DNA from: a virus
Taxonomy: Duplodnaviria; Caudoviricetes
IMG/VR virus record: IMGVR_UViG_2902511754_000003
Coordinates: 9,764 to 73,763 of that record
DNA: 64,000 nucleotides
Direction: 5' to 3' (one strand)
Shown here: piece by piece, positions 26,714-58,450 of the stretch
Position numbering within the stretch: position 1 is the first letter of the stretch
Layout: the number at the start of each line of letters is the position of its first letter
Notes under the pieces: generated by a model
What the model was told of the DNA's origin: nothing
The model's input: only the letters and a program-made list of their open reading frames with translations
Database searches by the model: none
Program-made: the position numbers and the translations under genes

Positions 26714-26961
26714 AATGTAATCCTATTACTATTTGTTGAAACAAGCCATTTTTCAGAATGGCGGTCAGGAGGCTGAAAAACCCCGTAATAGGAAAGGGCT
26801 GGACGTATTCCCCGAAGGTATTGTATTAGTCGCCCTCCCGACCATAGTCAGGATTACGGATATAAAAAAATCGCCTTGTGGCGATTAGTGAACTATCCGC
26901 CTATTACATTAAGGTTTTCAGACCTTAGGCGGATAGTAAAACAAAACCCCGTGGATTGCAA
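26714..26961 (-). ncRNA. C4-like antisense RNA switch 1 with own sigma70 promoter
   Basis: TTGCAA-N17-TACTAT; core GCGACTAATACAATACCTTCGGGGAATACGTCCAGC; CCTATTAC/GGTTTTTCAG complementary to flanking GTAATAGG/CTGAAAA sites. Confidence 0.75.
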
Positions 26962-26977
26962 CGGGGTTTTTGAAAAT

Positions 26978-27382
26978 TTATTCATCTTCGTTTCGTCTTT
27001 GTTGTTCCAGTGTGGTTATTTTACCACGTCCGAAACCTGCGATATAACCAGCTAATAATGCACCACCAATTTTAAGCACCTCTAGAGCAAAAGCAGTATT
27101 ATCTGTAAACATTGATACAAAAATAACGGCAACAACCGCAACAATAACAATACCGATAATAATATTGCGTTGTGTGTGCATTTTGGAAACTGCTTTTATT
27201 TGTTCGTTCCTGTCGCCTTTTTGTGCGTCAATGCTTGCCAGTGCAATCTTTTCATTGGATTTTATACGCTCTTGTTCAACTGCTAATTCTTTTTCTTTCA
27301 CGGCTTGATTAGCTTGTTGTACTTTGACTAAATCTCGCATTGTGGCGAGAAGTTGAACGTCTGTTTGTGGCTTTGGATTCAT
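26978..27382 (-). CDS. Coiled-coil plus two-TM hypothetical protein
   Basis: 134 aa; coupled to the upstream small ORF. Confidence 0.8.
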   Translation of the reverse strand: MNPKPQTDVQLLATMRDLVKVQQANQAVKEKELAVEQERIKSNEKIALASIDAQKGDRNEQIKAVSKMHTQRNIIIGIVIVAVVAVIFVSMFTDNTAFALEVLKIGGALLAGYIAGFGRGKITTLEQQRRNEDE

Positions 27383-27383
27383 A

Positions 27384-27578
27384 CTATCTCAACGGGCAAA
27401 GTTGTGGTGTTTTGTAAGTGATCTGGAATGAACCGTAACCACTTGAACCGATTGTAGGTGGTACAAAAGTAACAGATTGGATATTGTTATTTACACTCGC
27501 TTTTTTCGCTTCATTCAAGTACTGCTTGGCTGAAACATTGCGAGTTTTTCTAGGAACAAGCAATTTTGTTTTAGTCAT
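27384..27578 (-). CDS. 64-aa basic hypothetical protein (start MTKTKLL)
   Basis: AAAGG RBS; the upstream part of the tracked ORF runs through a promoter/leader. Confidence 0.7.
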   Translation of the reverse strand: MTKTKLLVPRKTRNVSAKQYLNEAKKASVNNNIQSVTFVPPTIGSSGYGSFQITYKTPQLCPLR

Positions 27579-27627
27579 AATAAATACCTTTGGTTGTGCG
27601 AAAATCCCTTGTGAAATAGGGTTTCTA

Positions 27628-27708
27628 TGAAAAGAGCCACTTAATGCGACTTGCTGACATTCTGTTGAAAGTGGGTTTAGTTTAGTCTGAATTGGGGGCG
27701 GTGTCAAA
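27628..27708 (-). promoter_or_regulatory. Promoter plus two-hairpin leader, copy B
   Basis: TTGACA-N17-TAAACT then ACTTTCAACAGAATGTCAGCAAGTCGCATTAAGTGGCTCTTTT; related to 31873-31953. Confidence 0.6.
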
Positions 27709-27756
27709 TTTTTCAAAAGCAAAACCACTTATTAAAATGTGAGATATGCCTCAAAA

Positions 27757-27993
27757 TTAAAATGATTTTGTTGAAGATGAAAATCGCTGTGCTATTCTTT
27801 TGATCGCCTTTGCTAACCACGAGGTATCTTTTACTGGAATGTGAATTGATTGCGTAATTTCGCCTTCGTAGGTTGCTTGGGAAACTGCCTTTATTTTTTC
27901 TTTGGCTTGCTTTGGCGTATCGGCAAAGATATTGATAACCCAAGTTTGACCCTCAAAATGATAAGTAAAGGTATATTCTTTCATTTGGTGCAT
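27757..27993 (-). CDS. Hypothetical phage protein
   Basis: 78-aa ORF with AGGAG RBS. Confidence 0.7.
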   Translation of the reverse strand: MHQMKEYTFTYHFEGQTWVINIFADTPKQAKEKIKAVSQATYEGEITQSIHIPVKDTSWLAKAIKRIAQRFSSSTKSF

Positions 27994-28004
27994 AAGGAGC
28001 TCCT

Positions 28005-28187
28005 ATGTATTTTGAAATTTATAAAGATGCGAAAGGTGAATTTCGCTGGAGATTGAAAGCAGGTAATCACCAATCTATAGCGACAAGTGGTGAAGGCTAT
28101 ACAACAAAGCAAAGTTGCCAACACGCCATTGGCGTTATTAAAACTGTAAATGAACAAACAGAAGTTAAAGACTTGACTGTTGCTTAA
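28005..28187 (+). CDS. DUF1508/YegP-family protein (moron)
   Basis: MYFEIYKDAKGEFRWRLKAGNHQSIATSGEGY; terminator AGCCCTGT...ACAGGGCTTTT follows. Confidence 0.9.
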   Translation: MYFEIYKDAKGEFRWRLKAGNHQSIATSGEGYTTKQSCQHAIGVIKTVNEQTEVKDLTVA

Positions 28188-28278
28188 AATTTAGCCCTGT
28201 AATAACAGGGCTTTTATAAAATGAAACTGTGCATAAGAGCGGTTAGGTTAATTGCGGTTTGTATCAACAACCGGCAAC

Positions 28279-28548
28279 TCAACAAACGCATTGAGCGGTT
28301 GTGGTGTTGTTTGTCTTTTCGTCAATCCAAGCCAATAAGTCTTTAAACTCATCGTAGTAACGGGCTTGCTTAGTTGCTTCTTTAACAACAAAGTCACGCA
28401 TTTCGCTATCTGAAAGTAGCCAGTATTTTTTAACCTGTTCAATCGCTCTTAATCGGTTAGGTCTTCTAAGATTAAAATTGTCGTGTATGTACTTACAAAA
28501 CAATTCAGAGAAAAACGAATAAGCTATACTGATATGCATTTCGTTCAT
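28279..28548 (-). CDS. Hypothetical phage protein
   Basis: Start overlaps the upstream stop at 28548. Confidence 0.7.
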   Translation of the reverse strand: MNEMHISIAYSFFSELFCKYIHDNFNLRRPNRLRAIEQVKKYWLLSDSEMRDFVVKEATKQARYYDEFKDLLAWIDEKTNNTTTAQCVC

Positions 28549-29204
28549 TAATCCGCTCCTAAAATTCTGCTCTTCGCCACTTCGATCAATAGTTGATACT
28601 CGCGTTTGGTTTTCTCGTCATGTACTTTCGCCGATTTTGCTAAAAACTCATCGACTGTGCCGGTAAAACAACCTCTTGTAACGATTAAGTCATCCTTGCC
28701 ATTAAACACTGTGAGTGTACCGTTCTCGGTACCGACATTACTCGCCCAGAAAATCATTTTTCGCTCGGAAACAATGGCGCAAGAACTAACCCGAGCGTTG
28801 CCATATACCCGAGCGTTGCCATATACCCGAGCGTTGCCATATACCCGAGCGTTGCCATATACCCGAGCGTTGCCATATACCTCAGCGTTGCCACATACCT
28901 CAGCGTTGCCATATACCTCAGCGTTGCCATATACCTCAGCGTTGCCATATACCTCAGCGTTGCCAAATACCCGAGCGTTGCCATATACCCGAGCGTTGCC
29001 ATATACCTCAGCGTTGCCAAATACCCGAGCGTTGCCACATACCCAAGCGTTGCCAGATTGATCTAAATTTTTCTCTGCTTCGATATAGCCGCCAAGTTCG
29101 CCGGCAACTACTGCACCAAAAGAGATTAGGGCTTTAATGCGATATAGCGTTCTGCCCAAATATTCTTTGGTGTCATCTTTCAACAGTTCGTATTTCTTTT
29201 GCAT
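28548..29204 (-). CDS. Phage protein with hexapeptide (left-handed beta-helix-like) repeats
   Basis: LYRIKAL...GELGGYIE N-terminus plus 15 GNA(R/E/W)V(Y/F/C/S) units. Confidence 0.88.
   Translation of the reverse strand: MQKKYELLKDDTKEYLGRTLYRIKALISFGAVVAGELGGYIEAEKNLDQSGNAWVCGNARVFGNAEVYGNARVYGNARVFGNAEVYGNAEVYGNAEVYGNAEVCGNAEVYGNARVYGNARVYGNARVYGNARVYGNARVSSCAIVSERKMIFWASNVGTENGTLTVFNGKDDLIVTRGCFTGTVDEFLAKSAKVHDEKTKREYQLLIEVAKSRILGAD
28785..29054 (-). repeat. 18-bp coding tandem repeat, 15 units
   Basis: GGCAACGCT(CGG/GAG/TGG)GTA(TAT/TTT/TGT)-like units counted from the translation. Confidence 0.95.
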
Positions 29205-29261
29205 TTTGTTTGTCCTATAAAAAAGCCCACGGTTAAGTGGGCGGTGTGGTTCAGAATGGGA

Positions 29262-29906
29262 TTAGCTCATTTCCTGAATGAGCTGTTGATAATATTCTTG
29301 GGCAGCACTAACACGTTCTTTGATTTTGTCGATGATGGCGTTATCACGTTTGACGGTCACGGTAGTGATCCGTTTGTCTTGCGGAATTTGTTCGACTAAA
29401 TCAATGTAGCGTTCGGGGCTATCATAACTACTGAGCATTTCGTAAGGAGTAGGGAAGAGGACAAAATCAATTTGTGCTTCTTCACAATCCCATAGCCACA
29501 TATAGCCTTGCATTTGAATGTCATAACCGGCTTTTTTCGCTTTATCTTCGGCTTCGTCTGTAAAGAACGGGTGAGTGCCAATATCCCACGAGCATTTTGT
29601 ATCAATAATGAGCTTGCGAGAGGGAACGTAAATATCACACTCTCCCGTGATCCATTCATTCTCTCGGCGTTCAGTGTTTTTCTTGAGGGGCAAGCCTCGT
29701 TTTCTGCCACTTAATTTAATGGCTTGTTCTTCCAGAAGATTCCCTTTTTCGGTGTATTTGTTGCCTTCAAAATCTTGATAACCGAACAGATCGAATTTAG
29801 CGATCTTTCTGACCGCACTTTTGGCGGTGTCGGAAAGTCCTTCTCCGCCTCTCTTCTGTGGCATTAAGTCAGCAAGACCTGAACATCTGGCTTTGAATTG
29901 GTACAT
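29262..29906 (-). CDS. PD-(D/E)XK exonuclease (YqaJ/lambda-exo-like)
   Basis: G..LEEQAI, GECDI, IIDTKCSW, QMQGYM motifs; same operon as RecT. Confidence 0.8.
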   Translation of the reverse strand: MYQFKARCSGLADLMPQKRGGEGLSDTAKSAVRKIAKFDLFGYQDFEGNKYTEKGNLLEEQAIKLSGRKRGLPLKKNTERRENEWITGECDIYVPSRKLIIDTKCSWDIGTHPFFTDEAEDKAKKAGYDIQMQGYMWLWDCEEAQIDFVLFPTPYEMLSSYDSPERYIDLVEQIPQDKRITTVTVKRDNAIIDKIKERVSAAQEYYQQLIQEMS

Positions 29907-29915
29907 CGTTATTCC

Positions 29916-30026
29916 TTATTGTTGAATGTGAGAAATTTTCCCATCGTAGTCGTGGGTGAGATCCAGTTGATATGCGCTGATAATCACAAACACGGCAAGC
30001 ACAATTTTTAAACCTTTCTTGAACAT
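29916..30026 (-). CDS. 36-aa membrane/secreted peptide with DYDGK motif (not in ORF track)
   Basis: MFKKGLKIVLAVFVIISAYQLDLTHDYDGKISHIQQ; AAAGGA RBS. Confidence 0.7.
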   Translation of the reverse strand: MFKKGLKIVLAVFVIISAYQLDLTHDYDGKISHIQQ

Positions 30027-30044
30027 TTTTTCTTCCTTTTGCTG

Positions 30045-30443
30045 AAATTTGGGTGCAAGAAACCGCCACACGATTTTCACGGGGAAAAGTGCGGTCGGTT
30101 TTGATTAAGTTTTAGATTACTTGGTAGTTATTAGATTTCGGGTTGTAATTCTCGAGGTGTTTTAGCACTCGCCAGTTACTCTCATAGTCGTATTTGAAAT
30201 CGGCTGTAAGGCGTTTCAGTAGCTTATGAACTTCCCGAATAGTGTGCTTATATTCGTAGGCTTGTCCGTAGATTGCACCGGAATATTTTGAACCGATAGT
30301 TTCCATTGCCGGATAAATCATTCGGCAAGTTTCTGTGCCTCGTAAGGCGATAAACCATATCCACGGCAGTAGTTGAAGTTCGTACTCGGTAAATTCAAAC
30401 TTGAATTTCTTTTCCGGCTCGGGCAAGGCGAGTTGTTTTGGCT
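30045..30443. repeat. ~390-bp direct repeat, copy 2
   Basis: Near-identical to 25975-26373. Confidence 0.9.
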
Positions 30444-30804
30444 GATTTTTCTCAATTAGAATTTTTTCAATTTGTTCATCACACCAAATAGCAAATTCAA
30501 CATTTAACCAACGAGCAAATGGAACAGCAAGACGACGGTGTAGCCAAGTGCCTTGTTGAGATAAATCTTTACCACCTTTGATTGTTTTTACGAAGTGGGA
30601 TTTCCCTACTTTGGCAGCGTTACCAGATTTTCTGGTTTCGGTCTTTTTGCAAAGGGTTTCAATATATTCTTGAGTTGTCGGTAACGTTAGCCAGTCATTA
30701 GGACGTTTATTAAAATGTTTTGCAATAGCCGTTGCATTAAGATATGCGTCATCTTGGAAGAAAACTTGAGTGCCGTTGTAATCGGCGGTGATGATATTTG
30801 TCAT
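30112..30804 (-). CDS. Antirepressor-type protein, KilA-N domain plus C-terminus shared with 26042-26713
   Basis: YLNATAIAKHFNKRPNDWL...GTWLHRRLAVPFARWL. Confidence 0.9.
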   Translation of the reverse strand: MTNIITADYNGTQVFFQDDAYLNATAIAKHFNKRPNDWLTLPTTQEYIETLCKKTETRKSGNAAKVGKSHFVKTIKGGKDLSQQGTWLHRRLAVPFARWLNVEFAIWCDEQIEKILIEKNQPKQLALPEPEKKFKFEFTEYELQLLPWIWFIALRGTETCRMIYPAMETIGSKYSGAIYGQAYEYKHTIREVHKLLKRLTADFKYDYESNWRVLKHLENYNPKSNNYQVI

Positions 30805-31051
30805 TTTGACTCTCCACTTGATATTTTCGATAATTCACCATTTTTCGACAAATGGTGCCGAGAGGTTCGAAAGCCTTCAAGTGGTTAGGCTGGACGTATT
30901 TCCCTTGCGGGTATTGTATTAGTCGCCCTCTCGACTTAACGAGATTTCGGCATAAAAAAGACCGCACTTTGGCGATCCGTTTACTACCGCCACTTGAAAA
31001 AGGTTTCGACACCTTGGGGCGGATAGTAGTATAAAGTGTTGGGGTTGTCAA
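30805..31051 (-). ncRNA. C4-like antisense RNA switch 2
   Basis: TTGACA-N17-TACTAT; same core; CCACTTGAA/TTTCGA complementary to flanking TCAAGTGG/TCGAAA. Confidence 0.75.
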
Positions 31052-31052
31052 A

Positions 31053-31850
31053 TTAGACTTCATTTTTATCTAAAATATCAATTAAATTTTTGATGTGGTA
31101 AAGCACGATTTTGTCGTCTACCGTGTGAACCATTACATCAACAATAAAGAGTTTGTGGTAGGGGTGTTCTCGCATTACCATCGTCTGTTTAAGCTCGTTT
31201 GTTTCAAAACTCACTTTAATCGCTTTTTTAGTAAAGGCTTCGATAATAGCTTTGTCGATCTGTTTATCTGCAGCTGTAACGGCTAATTGCATTACACAAC
31301 CTTTTTGCAATCCGACAATCGGTTCTTTCATTTCATCCATTTTCTTGCCGATTAGATGCTGTAATGCATTCGCTTTCATATTGTCGGCTTCAAAGTGAAT
31401 ATGAATACCACCATCAACTTTGATTGAGCCGATAGAAATGCTTGCTTTTGGGTCATTTGCAACAGGTTCTAAGGCGTGGCTTAGATGGCGCAATTCGCTT
31501 ACATTTATATTGTCGGGCTGTGGTCGCTTTCCTTGTAGCCAGCCGTATGTTTGAGCAAGACGTTCTCCAAACTCAAAAATAGCATTGCTATGTTCAATAA
31601 GTGTGTAAGTTGCGGCAACATAAGTTCCTAACTCGACAATAATGCTACCTTTGGTAATTTGTGTAACGTAGATGTTACTATCACAAGGTTGTAAATTTTG
31701 TTCTGGTGTAGAGTTTTGAATAAAGCGTGAATATTCTTTTGAAATGCCATCTAAACTTTGACATAAGGTGGATAACTCCACTGGTTTATCATTATGTAAG
31801 TAAATTTGTAATTTCATATTCTCATCGATTACTGTAAATGGTTCTGTCAT
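31053..31850 (-). CDS. Hypothetical accessory protein
   Basis: ~265 aa with own promoter/leader; no recognised domain. Confidence 0.8.
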   Translation of the reverse strand: MTEPFTVIDENMKLQIYLHNDKPVELSTLCQSLDGISKEYSRFIQNSTPEQNLQPCDSNIYVTQITKGSIIVELGTYVAATYTLIEHSNAIFEFGERLAQTYGWLQGKRPQPDNINVSELRHLSHALEPVANDPKASISIGSIKVDGGIHIHFEADNMKANALQHLIGKKMDEMKEPIVGLQKGCVMQLAVTAADKQIDKAIIEAFTKKAIKVSFETNELKQTMVMREHPYHKLFIVDVMVHTVDDKIVLYHIKNLIDILDKNEV

Positions 31851-31872
31851 AACACGCCTCAAAATTCAGATA

Positions 31873-31953
31873 CAAAAAAAGCCACTTAATTGTGGCTTGC
31901 CGACTTTCTGTTGAAAGTAGGCATAGTCTAGAATAAAGGGCGGTGGGTGTCAA
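31873..31953 (-). promoter_or_regulatory. Promoter plus two-hairpin leader/terminator, copy A
   Basis: TTGACA-N17-TAGACT; ACTTTC-AACA-GAAAGT hairpin; AAGCCAC-AATTAA-GTGGCTT-T-run. Confidence 0.65.
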
Positions 31954-31957
31954 ATGT

Positions 31958-32368
31958 TTAGATTAGTGATTGTCGAATAATTAGCTCTTGGTGTGCTGAA
32001 ATATCGTCTGATTGCAATGCACATTGTTGAATATATTTTAGATGTTCATTAACTAATATTCCACAATGAAATAATTCAGAATTACCTATTCGATTGCCCA
32101 ATTCATTTTTATCAAGTTCATAAAATTCATCAAAACAAATCCAAGTATTTTTACTCAGTATAGGGTTACTATTTTGTGGCAAAAAGAATGCTTGATGCGT
32201 ATTTAACTGACAACCATATTCAAGGGTATATCTCCACCCCTTTGAAGTGGTTTTAGCTACAATCAATTTTTGTGATGTCATACCCAAAATAATTAGGTAT
32301 TTATCACGCTCTCCGCCATCATTAAACTTGAATTTAGGATGAAATAAGATTGAACCCAACTGAAGCAT
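31958..32368 (-). CDS. Putative toxin, possible PemK/MazF-like fold
   Basis: G...FNDGGERDKYLIILG...IVAKTTSK resembles the MazF K-R-P..V..T-S/T layout; coupled to Panacea gene. Confidence 0.55.
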   Translation of the reverse strand: MLQLGSILFHPKFKFNDGGERDKYLIILGMTSQKLIVAKTTSKGWRYTLEYGCQLNTHQAFFLPQNSNPILSKNTWICFDEFYELDKNELGNRIGNSELFHCGILVNEHLKYIQQCALQSDDISAHQELIIRQSLI

Positions 32369-32925
32369 TACTTTAACACCTCAAGCAGTGCTAGACGTTC
32401 AATACTGTCCTTGTGCATTGACTCCCTATTTTGGCTTGGTAATGCTAACTCATAAGGAATTATTTCTTTCTTTTTGCCTTCAACTTCATAGATTTGATGC
32501 CACGGTAAACGTTCAAGGTGGGTTGCTTCGATCATATCATCAGCAAATGCATTTTTATATTGCTGTGCTAATGTATTAAGTATTTTTAATTCTCGTTTAG
32601 AAAAATGGGTTTGATCAAATTCAGACAAGGCATTAAATTTCAGCATTTCTTGTCTTCCTTTACGGATGGGAATTTGTTCAATTTTGATTTTAGCTAGAAA
32701 ATCGGCTTCTGGCTGTTTAATTTCTTCATGTAAATCGACAGGTACAGGTCCCATTTTCCAAGCAGAATAATCAAGCCCTGTTACGGAACGCCCTACTTGT
32801 TTGTAATGCTCAAAATCAAGGAAATAAAGCAACTTAAAGAGCTTTATTTTCCCTAACTTTTCAACATTTTGAGAAAAAAAAGTAATTACTTGTAACAATT
32901 TTTCTCTATTGTGAGTGATGAGCAT
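32368..32925 (-). CDS. Panacea (DUF4065/SocA-like) antitoxin
   Basis: GKIKLFKLLYFLD...YSAWKMGPVP...LIEATH..PW-like motifs. Confidence 0.88.
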   Translation of the reverse strand: MLITHNREKLLQVITFFSQNVEKLGKIKLFKLLYFLDFEHYKQVGRSVTGLDYSAWKMGPVPVDLHEEIKQPEADFLAKIKIEQIPIRKGRQEMLKFNALSEFDQTHFSKRELKILNTLAQQYKNAFADDMIEATHLERLPWHQIYEVEGKKKEIIPYELALPSQNRESMHKDSIERLALLEVLK

Positions 32926-33000
32926 TGATTTTCCTCTTTTGACTAGTGTGGTTATAGTACTTAATTTTTAATTTTAAATAAAGAATAAGAATTTCTGACG

Positions 33001-33939
33001 TTATAGTTTCTCCAACTTCTCCAATTCGTCATACTGTTCTTTGCTGAACTCATACATCCCACTATCACACAATTCTTGTAGTGTGGTTTCACCGTTGATG
33101 ATGTTTTGTTTGCATTGTTCAAAGGTTTCCTCATCAACAACTGTAATGATGTTATCCTCTTCTTTTTTGCCGCCCTCTTGCTTGTCCATTTCATCAATGC
33201 GGTATTTGTCGTTTCCATTTTCAATTTCAACCGCTCTTGCGATTTGTTCCTGACGTTCTTCCATTGGCATTTTACTGAGAACATATTTAATGGCTTTCCC
33301 AATGTACATTTCCAAATTCCACAAGGTGTAAGGCGAATAGCTGCCATTTTTCTTGCTTGGGCTGACTCCGGCAATTTGTAGGATTTTGCCAAAACTCACA
33401 AAGCGGTGAGAAATTTCATTGTTTTCTTTTGTGGAAACCAAAACGCCACGGAGATGACCTTCAACCCAAGCCGGTTCATAATCTTTTTGGTTATCAACAT
33501 CAGGGATATGTTTGACGACAGTGTCAAATCCATCGCTTACCATTTCAAATTGATCGCAGTCAAAAATAGGTGTCGCACGTAAATTAATGCCGGCACGTTT
33601 GGCTAATAATTGCCATCCTTTGTAGCCAATCTGAAATTCGGCATCTTTTTTGTACTTAACGATATAAGCAAGCCCCATATTTTTATTGAGTGGCAAGTCT
33701 AATTCTGCCGCTTGTAAACCGGACTTCACAATGCTTTCAGGGGTACAATAGACAAGCGAATCATCAAGCGCCACATTGAGTAATGTGGCTGCAAATTTCT
33801 CTTTCTTGTTTGGATCTGAGAGCAAACTTTTAATTCGGCTTTGGATACCTGCACTACCAATATAATGTTTGATATCGACTTTTCGTTGTTCTATCGGCGT
33901 TAGTTTTTTTTCTTTGCTTTCTGTTTTGTTATCTGTCAT
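33001..33939 (-). CDS. recT: RecT-family single-strand annealing protein
   Basis: CTPESIV...AAELDLP.....GLAYIV.Y...AEFQIGYKG. Confidence 0.92.
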   Translation of the reverse strand: MTDNKTESKEKKLTPIEQRKVDIKHYIGSAGIQSRIKSLLSDPNKKEKFAATLLNVALDDSLVYCTPESIVKSGLQAAELDLPLNKNMGLAYIVKYKKDAEFQIGYKGWQLLAKRAGINLRATPIFDCDQFEMVSDGFDTVVKHIPDVDNQKDYEPAWVEGHLRGVLVSTKENNEISHRFVSFGKILQIAGVSPSKKNGSYSPYTLWNLEMYIGKAIKYVLSKMPMEERQEQIARAVEIENGNDKYRIDEMDKQEGGKKEEDNIITVVDEETFEQCKQNIINGETTLQELCDSGMYEFSKEQYDELEKLEKL

Positions 33940-33951
33940 TTTTCACCTCAC

Positions 33952-34245
33952 TTAATCAGGGGCATACTCATTCATTCGTTTATCTAGACGTTGCTTTGCT
34001 ACATAAGCAATAGCTCGCTCTCGCACTTCGGTGAGCTTATAAAAAGCACCGGAACCGATAGCTAAATCGTGCAATGCTAACTCTTCATCGTTGTAGGCAA
34101 TGTATTCATTAATCGCATAAATAACGTTTTCATCTTCATTTTCAGCATCGGCTTTGATGGCTTCTATTTCTTGTTCGAGGGCAATTTCATAGCCGGCGAG
34201 GTTGTCTAGGTGTTCTTGATGGGCTGTGGCGAGAAAAGGTTTCAT
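33952..34245 (-). CDS. Hypothetical phage protein
   Basis: ORF coupled in early operon. Confidence 0.75.
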   Translation of the reverse strand: MKPFLATAHQEHLDNLAGYEIALEQEIEAIKADAENEDENVIYAINEYIAYNDEELALHDLAIGSGAFYKLTEVRERAIAYVAKQRLDKRMNEYAPD

Positions 34246-34727
34246 TTTGCTTGCTCCTGTGTGGCTTTTACCATTTCTGCCAACATTGCGAACATTGCCG
34301 GTTCAAGTACAATGGTGCGTGCGCTTGCACGGCGGTCTAAATGTAGGCGGATGTTGCCGTGTTTATCCACTAAATAACCGGTTAATCCATAAGGCGTGAA
34401 AGGCTTGCGATGTGGTTTTCGTGCCGGTTTTTGCAGCGTGGCTGGCTTCGGTGTTGTTCCTGTTAATTCAATTTTGGGTGATTCGGGTTTAACAGGTTTT
34501 GGTTCAATTTTTTTCATATTCGTCTTTCCTTTTTCATAATGCGGAATTTTTGTACTATTTAATAAATTGAATGAATCAATTCGTTTGTTTAAGGCGTTAA
34601 TCGCAACCATTTCGTTCATAAGAGGATAAGTGCGAATTTCCCGTTTATTATTTACCCAGAGTTCACCGTGATATTTTTTCGAATCAGCATTAAAAAGAAC
34701 GTGCATTTTGTAACTTTCAACTTTCAT
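34242..34727 (-). CDS. Hypothetical phage protein
   Basis: ORF coupled in early operon (4-nt overlaps). Confidence 0.75.
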   Translation of the reverse strand: MKVESYKMHVLFNADSKKYHGELWVNNKREIRTYPLMNEMVAINALNKRIDSFNLLNSTKIPHYEKGKTNMKKIEPKPVKPESPKIELTGTTPKPATLQKPARKPHRKPFTPYGLTGYLVDKHGNIRLHLDRRASARTIVLEPAMFAMLAEMVKATQEQAK

Positions 34728-35131
34728 TTTTTAGCCCTCAAAGTGCGGTCAATTTCCGCTTGTTTTTGAGCGGTATAAATTCGCAGTTCTTGTTCTGCTT
34801 GTGGGGTTAAATTAGGCGGTAAGCAAAGCCCGTTTTCATACACACCGCCTTTCAGTTCGCAACGGGTTTCAAGGCTGATTTGTTCGCTGACTTCGTTATT
34901 GTGCCAGTCGGTTGGGTTGCCCCACGCTTGAGAGACACTAAAAATGGCAATCACTACGATTGCGGTGGCGAGTAAAACAAGTGCGCCTTTGCCAAGAAAG
35001 GCGAGAAATTCAAAGATTGATTTGTGCATAATGGTGTCCTTTTTCGGTGGCTCGTTAAGAAATACGGTGCGAGAGCGCATTGCGGTTTGGTTTCGTTGTT
35101 GCCGCTTACGGCGTTTTTGTCGTTTGTTCAT
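34724..35131 (-). CDS. Hypothetical protein: Arg-rich N-terminus plus signal/TM segment; second possible start at MHKSIF
   Basis: AAGGA RBS before both ATGs. Confidence 0.7.
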   Translation of the reverse strand: MNKRQKRRKRQQRNQTAMRSRTVFLNEPPKKDTIMHKSIFEFLAFLGKGALVLLATAIVVIAIFSVSQAWGNPTDWHNNEVSEQISLETRCELKGGVYENGLCLPPNLTPQAEQELRIYTAQKQAEIDRTLRAKK

Positions 35132-35225
35132 TTTGTTTCCTTTTTAATCAATTTACTGAATTTAGGGTGCAAGAAACCGCCACACGATTTTCACGGGGAA
35201 AAGTGCGGTCGGTTTTGGTTGAGTT

Positions 35226-35867
35226 TTAGAAATTTATTTTGATCGCTTTTAAATCAAATTGGCGTAAGTGTTTTAGTACTCGCCAATTCGTCATTGGATC
35301 AATGTCAAAACTTGCGGTTAGTCGGTTTAAGATTTGGTTGGTTGAGCGTAGCACGCTTAAATATTCGTAAGCCTGTCCGTAAATTTGTCCGCTCATATTT
35401 GAACCTAAAACATCAAAGGCTTTTTCAATGTGTTGGAATGTGCCTACGCCACGTTTGAAAGCAAACCAGAGCCAAGCAAGTTCTTGAAGCTCATACTCGG
35501 TAAATTCAAAGGTGAATTTCTTTTCAGGTTCGGGTAAAGCAAGTTGTTTCGGTGGCTCAATCTGATTTAAGAACGCTCTGAGGACGACAAGGTGAAAAGC
35601 AGGGCTTATCCATGCAGCGTAGGCGATAACGAGTTCTTTACAGGCGTATGTGCCACCTTGTGAACCTCGAATTATTTTAAATGTACAGATCTGTACATTT
35701 GAATTTTCACTCTCAATTGCTGAAATAAGATCTTTTGTTTGATCTAAGCGAAGAAAATGAGAGGGGCGATGTTTTTCAGCTCCGCCACTAAGAGAGTGAA
35801 GATCATTTAAAGCGTAAAGGTTATCAAGAGTGCGGATTGAAGTGTTAAGAATAGTTAGATTTGACAT
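35226..35867 (-). CDS. Antirepressor-type protein, KilA-N plus P22-ant-like C-terminus
   Basis: LYALNDLH..SGG..KHRPSHFL...GTYACKELVIAYAAWISPAFHL. Confidence 0.9.
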   Translation of the reverse strand: MSNLTILNTSIRTLDNLYALNDLHSLSGGAEKHRPSHFLRLDQTKDLISAIESENSNVQICTFKIIRGSQGGTYACKELVIAYAAWISPAFHLVVLRAFLNQIEPPKQLALPEPEKKFTFEFTEYELQELAWLWFAFKRGVGTFQHIEKAFDVLGSNMSGQIYGQAYEYLSVLRSTNQILNRLTASFDIDPMTNWRVLKHLRQFDLKAIKINF

Positions 35868-36135
35868 ACTTTGTTCCTTCTACGAAAAGAAATGGTGATC
35901 GAGTGGTTCGTAGGCTGAACAAAGACAGCTGGACGTATTTCCCGAAGGTATTGTATTAGTCGCCCACTCGATCATAGATTGTAAATTACCTTTTTGTACA
36001 AAAATTGTGGGAAAGAGAAAAGAGATCACAAATTTTGGACACAAAAAAATCACGCTGACGGGGTGAATTACCGCTTTGTTTATAAGGCTACGACACCTTG
36101 GAATAAATCCTACCCTTGAACGTTGGGATTGTCAA
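35868..36135 (-). ncRNA. C4-like antisense RNA switch 3
   Basis: TTGACA-N17-TAGGAT; same core; CTTTGTT/CTACGA complementary to flanking AACAAAG/TCGTAG. Confidence 0.75.
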
Positions 36136-36148
36136 GGGTAGGGCGAGA

Positions 36149-36604
36149 TTATGCCCGCTCCATTCCTGCGTAGGAACCAGCAAATAGCTCTTTCTGTGCT
36201 GCAACCGCTAAGAAGTGGCTGCGATCGCGATAGAGTGAATTATTGGCAACACGGTTATCAATGTTGTGGAGTAGATATTGCGGAATGCTGATATTGATTC
36301 GTTGTTTTTTTCCGAAAAATTCAGACACATCAATATCAACTAATAACCAAGTGTCGCAATACTCATAATCTTCGTGTTTTTGATATTCGGCAAAACCGAG
36401 ATCTTTGATTGTAGAAAAATCAAAGCCTGTTTCTGCCATATCTTCAAGAACAAGGTGAATAGCGTCCGTTACCATTGGCAAAATATCTTCAATTTTGTCA
36501 GCGGCACTAATGCAGTGGTAAAGGTCGTTAGACAATGCGGGAACATAAAGCCCGATTGCGGTTTTATCATCTTTCGGCATTTCAACGCCGATAGTAAATA
36601 ACAT
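36149..36604 (-). CDS. hicB: HicB antitoxin
   Basis: VPAL...CISAAD...RINISIP RHH C-terminus; follows hicA. Confidence 0.9.
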   Translation of the reverse strand: MLFTIGVEMPKDDKTAIGLYVPALSNDLYHCISAADKIEDILPMVTDAIHLVLEDMAETGFDFSTIKDLGFAEYQKHEDYEYCDTWLLVDIDVSEFFGKKQRINISIPQYLLHNIDNRVANNSLYRDRSHFLAVAAQKELFAGSYAGMERA

Positions 36605-36632
36605 AAGCAAGCTCCTTGTTAGCTCGGCGGAG

Positions 36633-36815
36633 CTAAAGCCCCGCCGATTTTTTGATGGATTTTAAAGTTCCGATGGCTAAATCCTTTTTCGGGTGGGGAA
36701 CTGGAAAGGTTTTTCCGGTTTTAGGCGAGTACCAAATTTGATGATCGCCTTTTCCCATTCGTTTGAGATAACAGCCGTGAGCTTTAAGCTCCGAGATTAA
36801 GTCAGCTGAGTGCAT
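36633..36815 (-). CDS. hicA: HicA toxin (start MHSADL)
   Basis: GKGDHQIW...VPHPKKDLAIGTLKSIKKSAGL; promoter TTGAAA-N17-TATAAT at ~36846-36874. Confidence 0.92.
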   Translation of the reverse strand: MHSADLISELKAHGCYLKRMGKGDHQIWYSPKTGKTFPVPHPKKDLAIGTLKSIKKSAGL

Positions 36816-36901
36816 GCTTCCTCCTGTTGTCTTAATCTGGAAATAATTATACACACAACAAACACATGTTTCAATGAGTTTAATAATTTTAGGGAGAAAT
36901 A

Positions 36902-47606: not shown

Positions 47607-47615
47607 GAGTAAACA

Positions 47616-47978: not shown

Positions 47979-48491
47979 ATGGCAGTACAGATTATTGGTG
48001 GATTAAATCAAGCATTGCAGTTGATTGATCAACTAAAATCAGTGAAAGATAAAGCGATATATGTGGGAGTACCCGCGGAGAAAAATAGTCAAGTGGAAGG
48101 CGGTATTAACCTAGCTACATTGGCGATGATTTTACAACGTGGTGGCACTATTGTTCCAAAGCAAGCAAAAGCATTAGCTTTTGGAAAAGGTAAGAAAAGA
48201 TTTTTTGCAAAATCGGTTTTTATTCCTGCGCGTCCCTTTATTGAGCAAACCATTAATGAAAACCGAGAAAAATACGTGGCGAAATTAGCGAAGTTCATTC
48301 AGCAGGGAAAAACACCGTTGCAAGCGATGAATTTGGTGGCATTAATGGCGGAAGGCGATATTAAAGAAGCAATGCGAGATAAAAAACTTTGGGCTCCAAA
48401 TAGTGCTCTAACTGTAGCGATAAAAGGCTCAAGTACGCCGCTAATTGATAGTGGGAATTTACGTAAATCTATTACAGGACTTGTCAAATGA
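47979..48491 (+). CDS. Neck/virion morphogenesis protein
   Basis: IPARPFI...PNSALT...KGSSTPLIDSG.LR.SI. Confidence 0.8.
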   Translation: MAVQIIGGLNQALQLIDQLKSVKDKAIYVGVPAEKNSQVEGGINLATLAMILQRGGTIVPKQAKALAFGKGKKRFFAKSVFIPARPFIEQTINENREKYVAKLAKFIQQGKTPLQAMNLVALMAEGDIKEAMRDKKLWAPNSALTVAIKGSSTPLIDSGNLRKSITGLVK

Positions 48492-49286: not shown

Positions 49287-49291
49287 GCCTT

Positions 49292-50800: not shown

Positions 50801-50848
50801 CTAACCAAAAGCCAAGTATAACCTTGGCTTATTTTTTAAGGGAAAACT

Positions 50849-53958: not shown

Positions 53959-53959
53959 T

Positions 53960-54739: not shown

Positions 54740-54744
54740 TTAAG

Positions 54745-55916: not shown

Positions 55917-56557
55917 ATTATTCAATAGATTTAGCAACACCTGAAACGGCGACTGATTTACAAATCCAACAAGATCGCTTAAATCTGCACACCGCATTAC
56001 CCGCAAAGGTCGTGAGTTTTGATCCGTCAAAACAAACCGTTACCCTTGCAGTACAAATTAAAATGCAGTTGGACGATGGAAGTGGTGCGGATATTCCGCC
56101 TTTGGTTGATGTGCCGGTGAGCTTTCCGCGCGGTGGAGGGTTTGCGGTAACTTTTCCATTAAAAGCAGGTGATGAAGGAGTAGCCATTTTCTCCGAACGT
56201 TGCATTGATGGCTGGTGGCAAAGCTCGGAAGCATCTTTACCACTTGATTTTAGATTGCACGATCTATCAGATGCAATGTTTATCCCCGGTATTTGTTCAA
56301 CCCCTAGATCCATTAAAAGCTTTTTTACCGGTGGTTTATCAATGCAAACGCTTGATGGCAGCACTTATATTCGCATCGAAAATGGCTCAATTAAAATCAA
56401 AGGCAATATTGAGCATAATGGCGATACAGAACAAAAAGGCAAGTACAGCTCAACAGGTATTATATCAAGTGATGTTGATGTAATGGCTGCGGGTAAATCG
56501 GGCAAATCGCACAAACACTCAGGCGATAGCGGAGGCAAAACAGGAGAGCCGGAATGA
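55913..56557 (+). CDS. Baseplate spike (Gp138-like)
   Basis: HTALPAKV, VPV.FPRGGG, HDLSDA; C-terminal HKH. Confidence 0.85.
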   Translation: MNYSIDLATPETATDLQIQQDRLNLHTALPAKVVSFDPSKQTVTLAVQIKMQLDDGSGADIPPLVDVPVSFPRGGGFAVTFPLKAGDEGVAIFSERCIDGWWQSSEASLPLDFRLHDLSDAMFIPGICSTPRSIKSFFTGGLSMQTLDGSTYIRIENGSIKIKGNIEHNGDTEQKGKYSSTGIISSDVDVMAAGKSGKSHKHSGDSGGKTGEPE

Positions 56558-56907
56558 GAGTAAGACGGTTAGATAAAAATCATGATTGGACATTCGGGCA
56601 AGGCTTTGTGAATTATGCATCAGAATCTGAAGCGATTGCGCAGAACGTACAAACACGCCTTTTGTCATTTGCTAATGACTGGTTTCTAGATTTAAATCAT
56701 GGCTTACCGTGGCTTGAACAAATGGGGCACAATGTCAATCTGAGCGATTGGGAAATCCGCATTAAGCGACACGTATTGCAAACAGAAGGTGTGATTAAGA
56801 TCACAGAATATGAATCTATCTTTGATCCTGATACGCGACAATTAAAAATCACTATCAGCTATCAAGATATCTACGGACAACAACAAACTGCACGATATGA
56901 TGTTTAA
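56554..56907 (+). CDS. Baseplate wedge protein
   Basis: RRLD..HDWTFG, DWFLD...GLPW. Confidence 0.8.
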   Translation: MRVRRLDKNHDWTFGQGFVNYASESEAIAQNVQTRLLSFANDWFLDLNHGLPWLEQMGHNVNLSDWEIRIKRHVLQTEGVIKITEYESIFDPDTRQLKITISYQDIYGQQQTARYDV

Positions 56908-57039
56908 AACACAGTCTAATTTTATGGTAAAAATTTGCGATCTATATCTCAAAATTGAAATAAATTTGGCTTAAAACTTACAAAAACATTTTGGGTTTCG
57001 TAGAATGGGTGTTTCTATTTTTTACTAAGGAACATACTT

Positions 57040-58134
57040 ATGAACGCAACCAATATTATTGCGATAATCATTGTTATTTTGGCTTTCTGTAGTCCTTTTG
57101 CGTTGATTTACTGGATCGTAAGAAAAATAAAGAAATATATAGGGCAAAAAAATAAACCTTTATCTAATAAGTCAGAAGTTTATATAAAAAATAAGAGCAA
57201 TATCAATACCTCAGTAATTCATAATCAAAATTTTAATAAAAAAATAAATCGTAAGTTACATATTGTTAGTGATATGAATTTAAAAAATTATACTAATGAA
57301 GAGATTATTGAGTTAGTATTTGATCCTTTTTTGAGGATAAAAACATTTTCAGATGAATTAAAAACAAATGTAACTTATCGAGATTATAATGGGAATATTA
57401 TTTTTGATAGAACATTTACTGCGCTTGAGATGAGGAGTGAACGAATAGATAATTATCTGTTAATTCAATTTGCAAGATCAGATGGAGATGATGCATTTAA
57501 GCTGTATTTTATTGACTTATTAAATAATAAAGTGATATTTTCTGTATATCCGGAATTCTACTGGGATGAGGTGAATTCTTATGATGGAAACATATTGGTG
57601 ATAAAAAATAAATATGGTAGTTTTGAAGTAAATAATTTTGGACAGTTGGTTGATAATGTTACCTACTTAAAGGCTGTTGCAGTTTCTTACTCTATAGAAT
57701 CTTTAGACGCTGTTTCACAATTGTTTAGTAAGTTAGACAAAAACAAAGATAATATTCAATTTTATCACTCTGTTTTAGATGAATGTTTCGTCAAAATTCA
57801 ATCTGAATTCCATGCTTTAGGTTATCTTGCTAATTTATTAAAAATAAAAGGTGAAATTTTTGAGTATCAAAATGATTTTTATAATGCATATAGAGTGTAT
57901 GCTTTGGGATTGAAGTTAAATGCTAAACTAAGCGTAAGGAATGCTATAAAAAGAGTATCAAAACAATTAAGACAAAACACTATAGATTCTATCAACAAGT
58001 CAATTACATTTCTTGCTGACTCTTTGATTGCTAAAAATAAAGAGTTACGAGAAAAAAGTTTAGAGAAAAGCAGATTGGGTTTTGAAGAGGGTGTTAGAAC
58101 AGGAAGAATAGTGATAAAAGAATCTGAAAAGTGA
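57040..58134 (+). CDS. Very AT-rich moron protein with N-terminal membrane anchor
   Basis: 364 aa; own promoter TTACAA-N17-TAGAAT; terminator 58141-58169. Confidence 0.82.
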   Translation: MNATNIIAIIIVILAFCSPFALIYWIVRKIKKYIGQKNKPLSNKSEVYIKNKSNINTSVIHNQNFNKKINRKLHIVSDMNLKNYTNEEIIELVFDPFLRIKTFSDELKTNVTYRDYNGNIIFDRTFTALEMRSERIDNYLLIQFARSDGDDAFKLYFIDLLNNKVIFSVYPEFYWDEVNSYDGNILVIKNKYGSFEVNNFGQLVDNVTYLKAVAVSYSIESLDAVSQLFSKLDKNKDNIQFYHSVLDECFVKIQSEFHALGYLANLLKIKGEIFEYQNDFYNAYRVYALGLKLNAKLSVRNAIKRVSKQLRQNTIDSINKSITFLADSLIAKNKELREKSLEKSRLGFEEGVRTGRIVIKESEK

Positions 58135-58173
58135 TGTCTTAGCCCTATTATAATTAGTAGGGCTTTTTTGTTA

Positions 58174-58450
58174 TTGACAAGAACAAAGCAAAGCAATAGA
58201 CTTACCTACAAGGTCTCAAAAGCCTTATGTTCAACGGTATTCACTCCGTCAGCGTGATTTTTTTGTATCTAAAATTTGTGATCTCTTTCTCTTTACCACA
58301 AGATTTAGTGATACAAAACAACAATGTAATCAATGATCGACAGTGCGACTAATACAATACCTTCGGGGAATACGTCCGCCTGATTGAACACAGGTTTTGA
58401 GCTGTCGATCACCCTACAATGTAGGATTTCTCTCAAAAGGAAATGTTCAA
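58174..58450 (+). ncRNA. C4-like antisense RNA switch 4
   Basis: TTGACA-N17-TAGACT; same core; TTGAACA/TTTTGAG complementary to flanking TGTTCAA/CTCAAAA. Confidence 0.75.

What the first reader, a model, noticed from the sequence alone, without database searches (positions are those of the whole stretch)
26714..58450. Four C4-like antisense-RNA switches with one scaffold and four different recognition codes
SEEN: four cassettes at 26714-26961, 30805-31051, 35868-36135 (minus) and 58174-58450 (plus). Each has a 17-nt-spaced sigma70 promoter, a short leader hairpin, a hairpin plus T-run, the core GCGACTAATACAATACC..GGAA(A)TACGTCC(A)GC, and an antirepressor-type gene. Each core carries two short boxes complementary to sites found twice, once in the leader and once at the RBS or start codon of the downstream gene. 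The boxes differ per cassette: 1 CCTATTAC/GGTTTTTCAG vs GTAATAGG/CTGAAAA; 2 CCACTTGAA/TTTCGA vs TCAAGTGG/TCGAAA; 3 CTTTGTT/CTACGA vs AACAAAG/TCGTAG; 4 TTGAACA/TTTTGAG vs TGTTCAA/CTCAAAA. KNOWN: this is the a'/b' versus a1b1/a2b2 layout of the P1/P7 c4-ant secondary immunity region. INFERENCE: one prophage carries a bank of four orthogonal RNA immunity channels. Each would silence its own ant gene and any incoming phage with the same code. A reprogrammable natural riboregulator set of this kind would be unusual.
Basis: partly seen in the sequence, partly recalled or inferred. Interest (0 to 1): 0.88.

Follow-up and report, generated by a model that had tools for sequence, protein, structure and literature searches.

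The report
Four antisense-RNA locks on antirepressor genes
One prophage carries four copies of a small structured RNA, each with its own pair of recognition sequences matching the ribosome-binding site of the antirepressor gene behind it; this is the phage P1 c4 type of RNA lock in another RNA family, and several copies per prophage are common among related phages.

Summary
Four cassettes lie at the stated coordinates. Each has a promoter, a leader, a hairpin with a T-run, an 83-87-nt structured RNA, and a KilA-N/Bro-N + P22_AR_C antirepressor gene. Each RNA carries two variable boxes. Their complements occur together at only two places on the RNA's strand: the leader, and the ribosome-binding site or start codon.

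The Rfam C4 model (RF01695) does not match these RNAs. All four pass the curated threshold of sRNA-Xcc1 (RF02221), which has the same fold topology as P1 c4.

Across 47 distinct codes from 21 related proviruses, the loop box has a 7-nt or longer complement on both sides in 30 of 47 cognate cases. For non-cognate pairs the figure is 13 of 2160.

Copy number is not unusual. Of 50 related virus records, 18 hold two matches, 9 hold three and 6 hold four.

The most likely mechanism is c4-type translational repression of each antirepressor by its own RNA. Orthogonality, action in trans on incoming phages, and RNase P processing are inferred, not shown.

The prophage has no recognisable repressor of its own, so the antirepressors probably act on other prophages.

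This scan has already reported the same switch in at least 207 other genomes. Verdict: real, a new variant of a known kind, of moderate interest.

The parts
26933..26961 (-). Cassette 1 promoter, TTGCAA-17-TACTAT
   Evidence: It matches 8 of 12 and is below the scan cut-off. Its position is conserved in homologous leaders. Its -35 hexamer lies in the loop of the upstream gene's terminator, 26943-26970.
26862..26932 (-). Cassette 1 leader. Junction-box target CTGAAAA (26915-26921) sits in a small hairpin loop. Loop-box target is GTAATAGG (26900-26907). Terminator-like hairpin 26869-26886 is followed by a T-run.
26756..26842 (-). Cassette 1 RNA (sRNA-Xcc1 class). Loop box CCTATTAC is at 26785-26792 and junction box TTTTCAG at 26773-26779.
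   Evidence: 56.0 bits, cut-off 53
26714..26756 (-). Cassette 1 downstream targets: CTGAAAA(A) at 26750-26756 in a hairpin loop, and GTAATAGG(A) at 26722-26729 over the Shine-Dalgarno-like AGGA
26042..26713 (-). ant1, 223 aa, Bro-N + P22_AR_C
   Evidence: E 1e-28 and 8e-27
31023..31051 (-). Cassette 2 promoter, TTGACA-17-TACTAT
   Evidence: 10 of 12
30954..31022 (-). Cassette 2 leader. Targets are TCGAAA (31004-31009) and TCAAGTGG (30990-30997). Terminator-like hairpin plus T-run lies at 30954-30978.
30849..30935 (-). Cassette 2 RNA. Loop box CCACTTGA is at 30877-30884 and junction box TTTCGA at 30867-30872.
   Evidence: 67.1 bits
30805..30848 (-). Cassette 2 downstream targets: TCGAAA twice (30843-30848, 30825-30830), and TCAAGTGG (30814-30821) running into the GGAGAG Shine-Dalgarno
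30112..30804 (-). ant2, 230 aa, KilA-N + P22_AR_C
36107..36135 (-). Cassette 3 promoter, TTGACA-17-TAGGAT
   Evidence: 10 of 12
35973..36106 (-). Cassette 3 long leader. Targets are TCGTAG (36088-36093) and AACAAAG (36074-36080). A weak 4-bp hairpin plus T-run lies at 36043-36066, followed by a spacer of about 70 nt.
35890..35972 (-). Cassette 3 RNA. Loop box CTTTGTT is at 35918-35924 and junction box CTACGA at 35908-35913.
   Evidence: 57.0 bits
35868..35886 (-). Cassette 3 downstream targets: TCGTAG (35880-35885) and AACAAAG (35869-35875), flanking AAGGAA and ending 1 nt before the ATG
35226..35867 (-). ant3, 213 aa, KilA-N + P22_AR_C
58174..58202 (+). Cassette 4 promoter, TTGACA-17-TAGACT, just after the terminator of the preceding tail gene (58141-58164)
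   Evidence: 10 of 12
58203..58334 (+). Cassette 4 long leader. Targets are CTCAAAA (58215-58221) and TGTTCAA (58228-58234). A weak hairpin plus T-run lies at 58241-58264, followed by a spacer.
58335..58418 (+). Cassette 4 RNA. Loop box TTGAACA is at 58384-58390 and junction box TTTTGAG at 58395-58401.
   Evidence: 60.3 bits
58432..58450 (+). Cassette 4 downstream targets: CTCAAAA (58432-58438) and TGTTCAA (58444-58450), flanking AAGGAAA and abutting the ATG
58451..59110 (+). ant4, 219 aa from the ATG at 58451, KilA-N + P22_AR_C. A P22_AR_N protein follows at 59181-59750.

Best explanation
Each cassette is a self-contained antisense-RNA lock on one antirepressor gene, built like the immI region of phages P1 and P7.

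A sigma70-type promoter starts a transcript whose leader carries a first copy of two short target sites. A terminator-like hairpin with a T-run follows. Transcripts that read through contain an RNA of about 85 nt, made of a closing stem, a conserved hairpin, a hairpin with a variable loop, a variable single-stranded junction, and a 3' RCC(A/C) tail.

The loop box and the junction box pair with a second copy of the two sites. These flank or cover the Shine-Dalgarno sequence and start codon of the antirepressor gene, so ribosomes cannot load and the antirepressor stays off.

The leader copy of the sites most likely competes for the RNA as a decoy, or feeds back on its synthesis. It could do this within the precursor or as a short terminated RNA, as shown for IsrK of Gifsy-1.

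The four RNAs share the scaffold but have four different box pairs, so each should act mainly on its own gene and on any incoming phage carrying the same code.

Shown here: the sequences, the fold family, the positions of the sites, and three-way co-variation of box, leader site and RBS site across the family.

Inferred: the direction of regulation, processing (by RNase P, as for P1 c4), stability, action in trans, and orthogonality.
For: - Four RF02221 matches above the gathering score, with compensatory changes in the closing stems between the four copies.
- The stem of the variable-loop hairpin covaries across 38 relatives, with 9-13 sequences changed on both sides at 3 of its 4 pairs.
- Both boxes of each RNA have complements in the leader and at the RBS or start codon, and paired sites occur nowhere else on that strand.
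- Family-wide co-variation: 47 codes, 46 different loop boxes. Loop boxes with a 7-nt or longer complement on both sides number 30 of 47 cognate and 13 of 2160 non-cognate.
- The sites sit at fixed offsets, about -53 to -135 upstream and about +25 to +37 downstream of the RNA.
- The downstream genes are antirepressor-type. In the isolated Aggregatibacter phage S1249, the homologous region is 87.6% identical over 221 nt and stands before the annotated anti-repressor Ant.
- P1 annotation and sequence show the same order: a1, b1, hairpin with T-run, c4, a2, b2 over the RBS. The RNA topology is the same, with one box in a hairpin loop, the other in the junction, and a 3' ACC tail.
- The leader hairpin with T-run lies 20-105 nt upstream of the RNA in 72 of 98 distinct upstream regions, with many different stems that stay paired.
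- A published precedent exists for a short terminated leader RNA acting on the read-through antirepressor transcript: IsrK (PMC4825925).
Against: - No RNA data. No listed sequencing run is on record as RNA, so no discrete RNA, 5' end or 3' end is shown.
- The Rfam C4, c4-a1b1 and isrK models do not match the window. The link to P1 therefore rests on architecture, not on demonstrable sequence homology.
- There is no icd-like small ORF between the RNA and ant. The P1 step in which blocked icd translation leads to Rho termination cannot be carried over as it stands.
- In cassettes 3 and 4 the leader hairpin is weak.
- In 17 of 47 codes the 7-nt criterion fails on at least one side, through shorter pairing or module exchange.
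- sRNA-Xcc1 was described in Xanthomonas as a trans-acting integron sRNA, with no such role assigned (PMC2996969, and Chen 2011 as cited in PMC12189769).
Confidence: 0.8

Rival explanations
1. Cis-acting leader switch of the IsrK type. The structured RNA is not released as a diffusible repressor. It folds back on the RBS within the same read-through transcript, giving an inactive form. The short leader RNA that ends at the hairpin with T-run acts in trans as an activator by pairing with the boxes. The cassettes would then be switches for turning antirepressors on, not immunity channels.
For: - The leader terminator is conserved, and it forms whether or not the target sites are occupied.
- The predicted fold of the full cassette 2 transcript pairs the leader sites with the RNA boxes in cis.
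- The mechanism was shown experimentally for isrK-orf45-anrP of Gifsy-1 (PMC4825925).
- The Rfam isrK model gives a sub-threshold match (35 bits) on the P1 leader, hairpin and T-run included.
Against: - The RNA has the closing stem and 3' RCC tail of the processed P1 c4 RNA.
- No isrK model match in the window.
- Codes are shared between different proviruses, as expected for immunity types acting in trans.
- The two readings are not exclusive. Decoy and repressor may both operate.
Confidence: 0.3
2. The RNAs are trans-acting sRNAs whose main targets are host or other phage mRNAs. This has been proposed for sRNA-Xcc1 in Xanthomonas and Xylella, and for the C4-like group in Acinetobacter baumannii. 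The nearby complementary sites would be incidental.
For: - Published suggestions in PMC5320573 and PMC12189769.
- In some relatives the loop box matches the leader but not the downstream region.
Against: - Three-way co-variation with sites at fixed offsets next to the RNA.
- In the window, paired targets occur only within the RNA's own cassette on its strand.
Confidence: 0.05
3. The repeated scaffold is chiefly a recombination module: a conserved DNA stretch at which antirepressor morons are exchanged. On this reading the RNA has no regulatory function.
For: - Contigs from mixed samples join the scaffold of one cassette to the leader of another, for example 26842 to 30940 and 31010 back to 26922.
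- Some relatives have mismatched RNA/RBS pairs.
Against: - Such joints may be assembly artefacts at repeats.
- Compensatory changes in stems and in box/target pairs show selection on RNA pairing.
- Recombination at the scaffold is compatible with function and does not replace it.
Confidence: 0.03

Closest known systems
c4 antisense RNA / immI region of phages P1 and P7 (Rfam C4 RF01695, with c4-a1b1 RF03163)
   Same: - Constitutive promoter, upstream target pair, leader hairpin with T-run, structured RNA of about 80 nt, second target pair over the RBS, then the antirepressor.
- The RNA has a closing stem, a tetraloop hairpin, one box in a hairpin loop, one box in the 3' junction, and an ACC tail.
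- The box nearer the RNA's 5' end pairs with the site nearest the RBS.
- Specificity lies in a few nucleotides of the boxes (PMC5320573).
   Different: - No match to either Rfam model.
- The closing stem is 9 bp rather than about 17. The first hairpin is long and carries the conserved AAUACAAUACC motif.
- There is no icd ORF; the RNA acts directly on the ant start.
- There are four cassettes in one prophage rather than one.
sRNA-Xcc1 (Rfam RF02221; Xanthomonas campestris integron sRNA)
   Same: All four RNAs match the model over its full length, above the curated threshold.
   Different: - The papers I could read treat the family as a free-standing, trans-acting, virulence-linked sRNA with no known target (PMC2996969, PMC12189769).
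- Here each copy has cognate sites beside it and an antirepressor gene behind it.
- The APSE phage paper only notes that such RNAs sit upstream of BRO/ORF6N genes (10.1101/2020.03.17.996009).
IsrK of Salmonella prophage Gifsy-1 (Rfam RF01394)
   Same: A promoter gives a short RNA ending at an intrinsic terminator. Read-through gives an antirepressor mRNA whose translation depends on pairing with that short RNA (PMC4825925). The leaders here have the same position and a conserved hairpin with T-run.
   Different: - No isrK model match in the window.
- An sRNA-Xcc1-type RNA lies between leader and gene.
- No upstream small ORF.
CI RNA immunity of satellite phage P4 and CA RNA of N15
   Same: A processed small RNA has complementary sites both upstream and downstream of itself in the same transcript. 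It prevents expression of the downstream genes. This rests on my own knowledge, and on Barquist 2013 (PMC3632133), which groups P4, P1, P7 and N15 together.
   Different: Not compared by sequence here. P4 controls replication genes through premature termination, not an antirepressor.
Multi-copy C4-like sRNAs of Acinetobacter baumannii and tandem sRNA-Xcc1 copies in a Xylella island
   Same: Many copies share one scaffold and vary in the box regions (PMC5320573, PMC12189769).
   Different: Those papers propose host or plant targets. They do not report cognate flanking sites or one antirepressor gene per copy.

Membership tests
Rfam RF02221 sRNA-Xcc1 | Covariance-model score at or above the gathering score (53 bits), over the full model length | tested here: met
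   67.1, 60.3, 57.0 and 56.0 bits, model positions 1-87 in all four
Rfam RF01695 C4 antisense RNA | Covariance-model match | tested here: not met
   no match in the window even at E<=10. The same model scores 68.8 bits on P1 c4.
Rfam RF01695 C4 antisense RNA | Fold topology: closing stem, tetraloop hairpin, hairpin with a variable loop, variable junction, 3' ACC tail | tested here: met
   Consensus-structure lines compared. The variable-loop hairpin stem covaries.
P1/P7 immI system | Two boxes in the RNA, each complementary to one site upstream of the RNA and one at the RBS of the next gene | tested here: met
   Family-wide 30 of 47 cognate against 13 of 2160 non-cognate.
P1/P7 immI system | Leader matches the Rfam c4-a1b1 model (RF03163) | tested here: not met
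   no match at E<=10 in 26600-36300. The model scores 51 bits on P1.
P1/P7 immI system | Small icd ORF between the RNA and ant, whose translation block causes Rho termination | tested here: not met
   Only 35-45 nt separate the RNA from the ant start in all four cassettes. There is no room for an ORF.
P1/P7 immI system | RNA released from the precursor by RNase P, and stable | not testable with these tools
   Only the stem plus RCC(A/C) tail is seen. No RNA reads were available.
Rfam RF01394 isrK | Covariance-model match on the leader | tested here: not met
   none. There is a sub-threshold 35.1 bits on the P1 leader.
IsrK-type leader | Intrinsic terminator between the leader sites and the antirepressor mRNA, giving a short RNA | tested here: inconclusive
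   The hairpin with T-run is strong in cassettes 1 and 2 and weak in 3 and 4. It is conserved in 72 of 98 relatives. Termination itself is not shown.
Phage antirepressor (P22 Ant type) | P22_AR_C domain with a KilA-N or Bro-N DNA-binding domain | tested here: met
   all four, E between 2e-20 and 1e-29 for P22_AR_C

The most novel reading that the evidence does not exclude
The sRNA-Xcc1 family is a natural library of dozens of mutually orthogonal antisense locks on one scaffold. On this reading, a prophage that has lost its own repressor and replication genes keeps four of them as an RNA shield. The shield would block antirepressors of four classes of incoming phage, and so protect the repressor of the neighbouring prophage, while its own four antirepressors can act on other prophages once unlocked.
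Probability: 0.2. Interest if true: 0.7.

Novelty: new variant of a known kind. Interest (0 to 1): 0.5.

Why it matters
It gives a concrete, testable job to an RNA family, sRNA-Xcc1, that the papers I could search annotate as an orphan virulence-linked sRNA. That job is guarding prophage antirepressor genes in the manner of P1 c4.

The family offers a ready-made set of short, naturally co-varying RNA/target codes on one scaffold: 46 loop boxes in this small sample. These could be used to study how heteroimmunity evolves and how much cross-talk such short pairings allow. They could also serve as parts for synthetic riboregulators.

For phage biology, several locked antirepressors in a prophage without a repressor point to cross-talk between co-resident prophages.

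It does not overturn anything. The principle has been known since 1990, and the scan has met the same switch many times.

Tried and rejected
- **Rfam models.** C4 (RF01695), c4-a1b1 (RF03163) and isrK (RF01394) gave no match in the window at E<=10. RF02221 gave no match on P1. Sequence-level homology between the two RNA families could therefore not be shown.
- **RNA evidence.** No RNA holder was listed. The four runs laid were contigs of mixed samples with mosaic relatives, and they say nothing about transcripts.
- **Whole-RNA RNAduplex 4x4 matrix**. The diagonal was strongest for RNAs 1-3 at the RBS site, but the result was blurred by the conserved stems. I replaced it with box-specific exact-complement counts.
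- **First box/target statistic**. It included the conserved hairpin arms and gave only a modest separation. I refined it.
- **Test of whether co-resident cassettes avoid sharing a code.** The result was 0 of 65 pairs with the same loop box, but only about 0.8 would be expected at random, so the test has no power.
- **RNAalifold on a MAFFT alignment of 38 RNAs**. It recovered the variable-loop hairpin and the tip of the first hairpin. It missed the closing stem, because two sub-classes with different stem lengths were misaligned.
- **Attenuator idea**, that the RNA binding the leader sites would switch the terminator. Constrained folds keep the terminator hairpin either way, so there is no support for a switch. 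This does not exclude one.
- **Fifth RNA copy near 31.9 kb.** Only a promoter, leader and terminator are there, with no RF02221 match.
- **Literature.** I found no paper describing these cassettes in Pasteurellaceae phages. Hartmann 1995 (PMC41593) is not held.


Full report
**1. The observation**

I read the four stretches on the coding strand and located every motif by script.

Each promoter has a 17-nt spacer. Those of cassettes 2, 3 and 4 score 10 of 12 in the consensus scan. That of cassette 1 (TTGCAA/TACTAT) matches 8 of 12 and was not listed. It lies at the position of TTGACA/TTTACA in homologous leaders.

The hairpin with T-run is convincing in cassettes 1 and 2, with 7 pairs of which 4 are G-C. 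In cassettes 3 and 4 it is a 4-bp stem with a 9-nt loop.

An Rfam scan of the whole window gives exactly four matches above a gathering score, all to sRNA-Xcc1 (RF02221). They lie at 26756-26842(-), 30849-30935(-), 35890-35972(-) and 58335-58418(+), and score 56-67 bits against a cut-off of 53. The four closing stems differ by compensatory changes.

The second box is the single-stranded junction before the 3' half of the closing stem.

Each box has its complement once in the leader and once just upstream of the start codon. On the RNA's strand, a junction target followed within 45 nt by a loop target occurs only at these two places per cassette. Two stray pairs on the + strand are in line with chance for 6-7-mers.

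The downstream sites flank or overlap the Shine-Dalgarno sequence and reach to within 0-8 nt of the ATG.

The four genes behind the cassettes have Bro-N or KilA-N domains plus P22_AR_C. They are 34-82% identical to one another over the aligned parts.

**2. Setting**

The window is part of a 73.8-kb provirus record and holds two prophages.
- Bases 1 to about 23.7k carry P2-like packaging, head and tail genes.
- From the integrase at 24112-25242 to the end lies a second prophage. It has a leftward early arm (exonuclease, RecT-like protein), then hicBA, then rightward ninG, Q, lysis, terminase, portal, sheath, tape measure, baseplate and fibre genes.

All four cassettes lie in the second prophage. 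Three are in the early arm. One is a self-contained insert between tail genes, with terminators on either side.

This prophage has no recognisable repressor. hicA abuts ninG. The only HTH_3 plus S24 frame of the whole record lies at record 7835-8467, outside the window on the side of the first prophage. The earlier first-reader notes e1-5916241 and e1-5916234 say the same, and my searches agree.

**3. Relatives and co-variation**

The conserved 17-mer of the first hairpin occurs in 73 stretches of viral contigs. It also occurs in 50 stretches of bacterial genomes. Most are Pasteurellaceae (Haemophilus, Rodentibacter, Gallibacterium, Actinobacillus, Pasteurella), with some Vibrio, Gilliamella, Sodalis and Neisseria.

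In nearly every copy, the loop has an exact complement at a fixed distance upstream and about 30-37 nt downstream of the RNA. The upstream distance is about -63 in a short-leader class and about -107 to -135 in a long-leader class. The junction box has complements some 7-27 nt 5' of each of these.

I then took all RF02221 matches from 21 proviruses, including weak ones, and parsed 61 cassettes. They gave 47 distinct codes, with 46 loop boxes and 18 junction boxes.
- A 7-nt or longer exact complement of the loop box in both the leader and the downstream window: 30 of 47 cognate cases against 13 of 2160 non-cognate pairs.
- Taken singly: 37 of 47 cognate against 2.7% non-cognate for the leader, and 32 of 47 against 3.0% for the downstream site.
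- The junction box is less diverse and separates less well: 36 of 47 cognate against about 20% non-cognate.

The stem under the variable loop covaries, with 9-13 sequences changed on both sides at three of its four pairs.

This is strong evidence that RNA box, leader site and RBS site evolve together. The same codes recur in different proviruses. The window's cassette 2 code, for example, is also in L038, L052 and L187. This is what immunity types would look like.

**4. How common is a bank of several?**

I ran RF02221 over 50 of the related virus records. It gave 0, 1, 2, 3 and 4 matches (E<=0.001) in 3, 14, 18, 9 and 6 records respectively. None had more than four.

The weak matches I parsed also have cognate sites. 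Tandem pairs before one gene occur too, for example in Aggregatibacter phage S1249.

Four is therefore the top of the range seen, but it is not exceptional.

Co-resident cassettes never shared a loop box (0 of 65 pairs). Random pairs share one in only 1.2% of cases, so this says nothing.

**5. Relation to P1 c4**

The C4 model matches P1 at 48337-48422 (68.8 bits) but not the window. RF02221 does not match P1. By the models these are two families. Rfam places C4 and c4-a1b1 in clan CL00128, while sRNA-Xcc1 has no clan.

The architecture is nevertheless the same.
- P1 has a1 and b1 upstream.
- Next comes a hairpin with a T-run, whose 3' flank (TATTTTTGTGTCCGTAA) resembles that of the cassettes (TTTTTTTATATCCGTAA in cassette 1).
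- The RNA has a closing stem, a UUCG hairpin, a box in a hairpin loop (b'), a box in the junction (a') and an ACC tail.
- Then come a2 and b2, the latter over the RBS.

In P1 terms, the window's loop box corresponds to b' and its junction box to a'.

Differences:
- The closing stem is shorter.
- The first hairpin is long and carries the invariant AAUACAAUACC.
- There is no icd ORF.
- There are several cassettes per phage.

**6. The leader**

The hairpin with T-run between the leader sites and the RNA lies 20-105 nt upstream of the RNA in 72 of 98 distinct upstream regions. It shows many stem variants that keep pairing.

In the long-leader class, the stem changes (TCAC/GTGA, CCAAC/GTTGG, CCGCT/AGCGG) while the loop keeps CCCGNNAG.

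Constrained folds keep the hairpin whether or not the sites are occupied. I therefore see no evidence for an RNA-controlled attenuator.

The Rfam isrK model gives a sub-threshold match to the P1 leader, including this hairpin. For Gifsy-1, the short terminated IsrK RNA was shown to activate translation of the read-through antirepressor transcript (PMC4825925). Barquist et al. group IsrK-like and C4-like elements of P4, P1, P7 and N15 as one kind of system (PMC3632133).

I therefore think the leader yields a short RNA, or a precursor segment, that competes for the boxes. This is inference.

**7. Mechanism and rivals**

Most likely (0.8): c4-type translational repression of each ant by its own RNA.

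The IsrK-type reading, a cis lock plus a trans-activating leader, is compatible with much of the anatomy and may coexist (0.3).

Host-directed sRNA function and a purely recombinational role are unlikely, given the co-variation and the fixed local sites.

**8. Literature and novelty**

C4-like multi-copy RNAs are reported in Acinetobacter baumannii (PMC5320573) and tandem sRNA-Xcc1 copies in Xylella (PMC12189769). Both are interpreted as acting on host or plant targets.

The APSE phage paper notes C4, IsrK and sRNA-Xcc1 RNAs upstream of BRO/ORF6N genes, without a mechanism (10.1101/2020.03.17.996009).

I found no paper that assigns sRNA-Xcc1 the c4-type role, or that describes the cassettes in Pasteurellaceae phages.

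Within this scan, the same switch has already been reported in at least 207 other genomes, with follow-up agents reaching the same reading. What this window adds is the four-fold bank in one prophage that lacks a repressor, and the family-wide statistics given here.

**9. Verdict**

- The anatomy and the P1-like logic hold.
- The C4 model check fails in favour of sRNA-Xcc1.
- "Unusual" does not hold.
- Orthogonality and trans immunity remain to be tested.

This is a new variant of a known kind, with interest 0.5.

Noticed in passing
window 31862-31953 (-): A fifth promoter (TTGACA-17-TAGACT, 31925-31953), a short leader and a terminator-like hairpin with T-run (31879-31898) stand directly before the 269-aa gene 31053-31862 (phrog_9226, function unknown). 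No sRNA-Xcc1-type RNA lies between them. The T-run flank resembles that of cassette 4. There is a weak isrD match (E 0.015) at 31874-31923.
   Followed up: partly
window 36149-37459; record 7835-8467: The second prophage has no cI/cro/replication block. hicA/hicB (36149-36917, -) abut ninG (36902, +) and Q (37452, +). The only HTH_3 + Peptidase_S24 frame of the record lies upstream of the window, on the side of the P2-like prophage.
   Followed up: partly
L127 2265-2348 and 2496-2582 (-), Aggregatibacter phage S1249 NC_013597: Two tandem sRNA-Xcc1-type RNAs (47.3 and 68.6 bits) stand before the annotated anti-repressor Ant D11S_2263. Neither is annotated in the record. The upstream one is part of the 221-nt stretch that is 87.6% identical to the window's cassette 1.
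   Followed up: partly
L125 1394-1475 (phage P1 48230-48311): The P1 c4 leader contains a hairpin with T-run. Its 3' flank resembles the leaders of these cassettes. The Rfam isrK model matches this stretch below threshold (35.1 bits, E 4.5e-6). This suggests that IsrK-like RNAs are the terminated leaders of c4-type systems.
   Followed up: partly
long-leader cassettes, e.g. window 36043-36066 (-) and 58241-58264 (+), and relatives: The weak hairpin before the T-run keeps a conserved loop (CCCGNNAG) while its stem covaries (TCAC/GTGA, CCAAC/GTTGG, CCGCT/AGCGG). The T-run can also pair with an A-rich stretch about 60 nt downstream to form a long spacer hairpin.
   Followed up: no
window 26842/30940, 31010/26922, 35747/26800: Contigs from mixed public samples join the scaffold of one cassette to the flank of another. 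Either relatives have recombined at the conserved scaffold, or these are assembly artefacts at repeats.
   Followed up: no
window 32368-32925 (-), 28548-29204 (-), 28005-28187 (+): The early arm also encodes a SocA/Panacea antitoxin-domain protein, a YdcK beta-solenoid/bactofilin-like protein, and a DUF1508 protein on the opposite strand.
   Followed up: no
window 59170-59197 (+): A strong terminator-like hairpin after ant4 overlaps the listed start (59181) of the P22_AR_N protein ORF 59181-59750. Either the true start is later, or the gene is read only by read-through.
   Followed up: no
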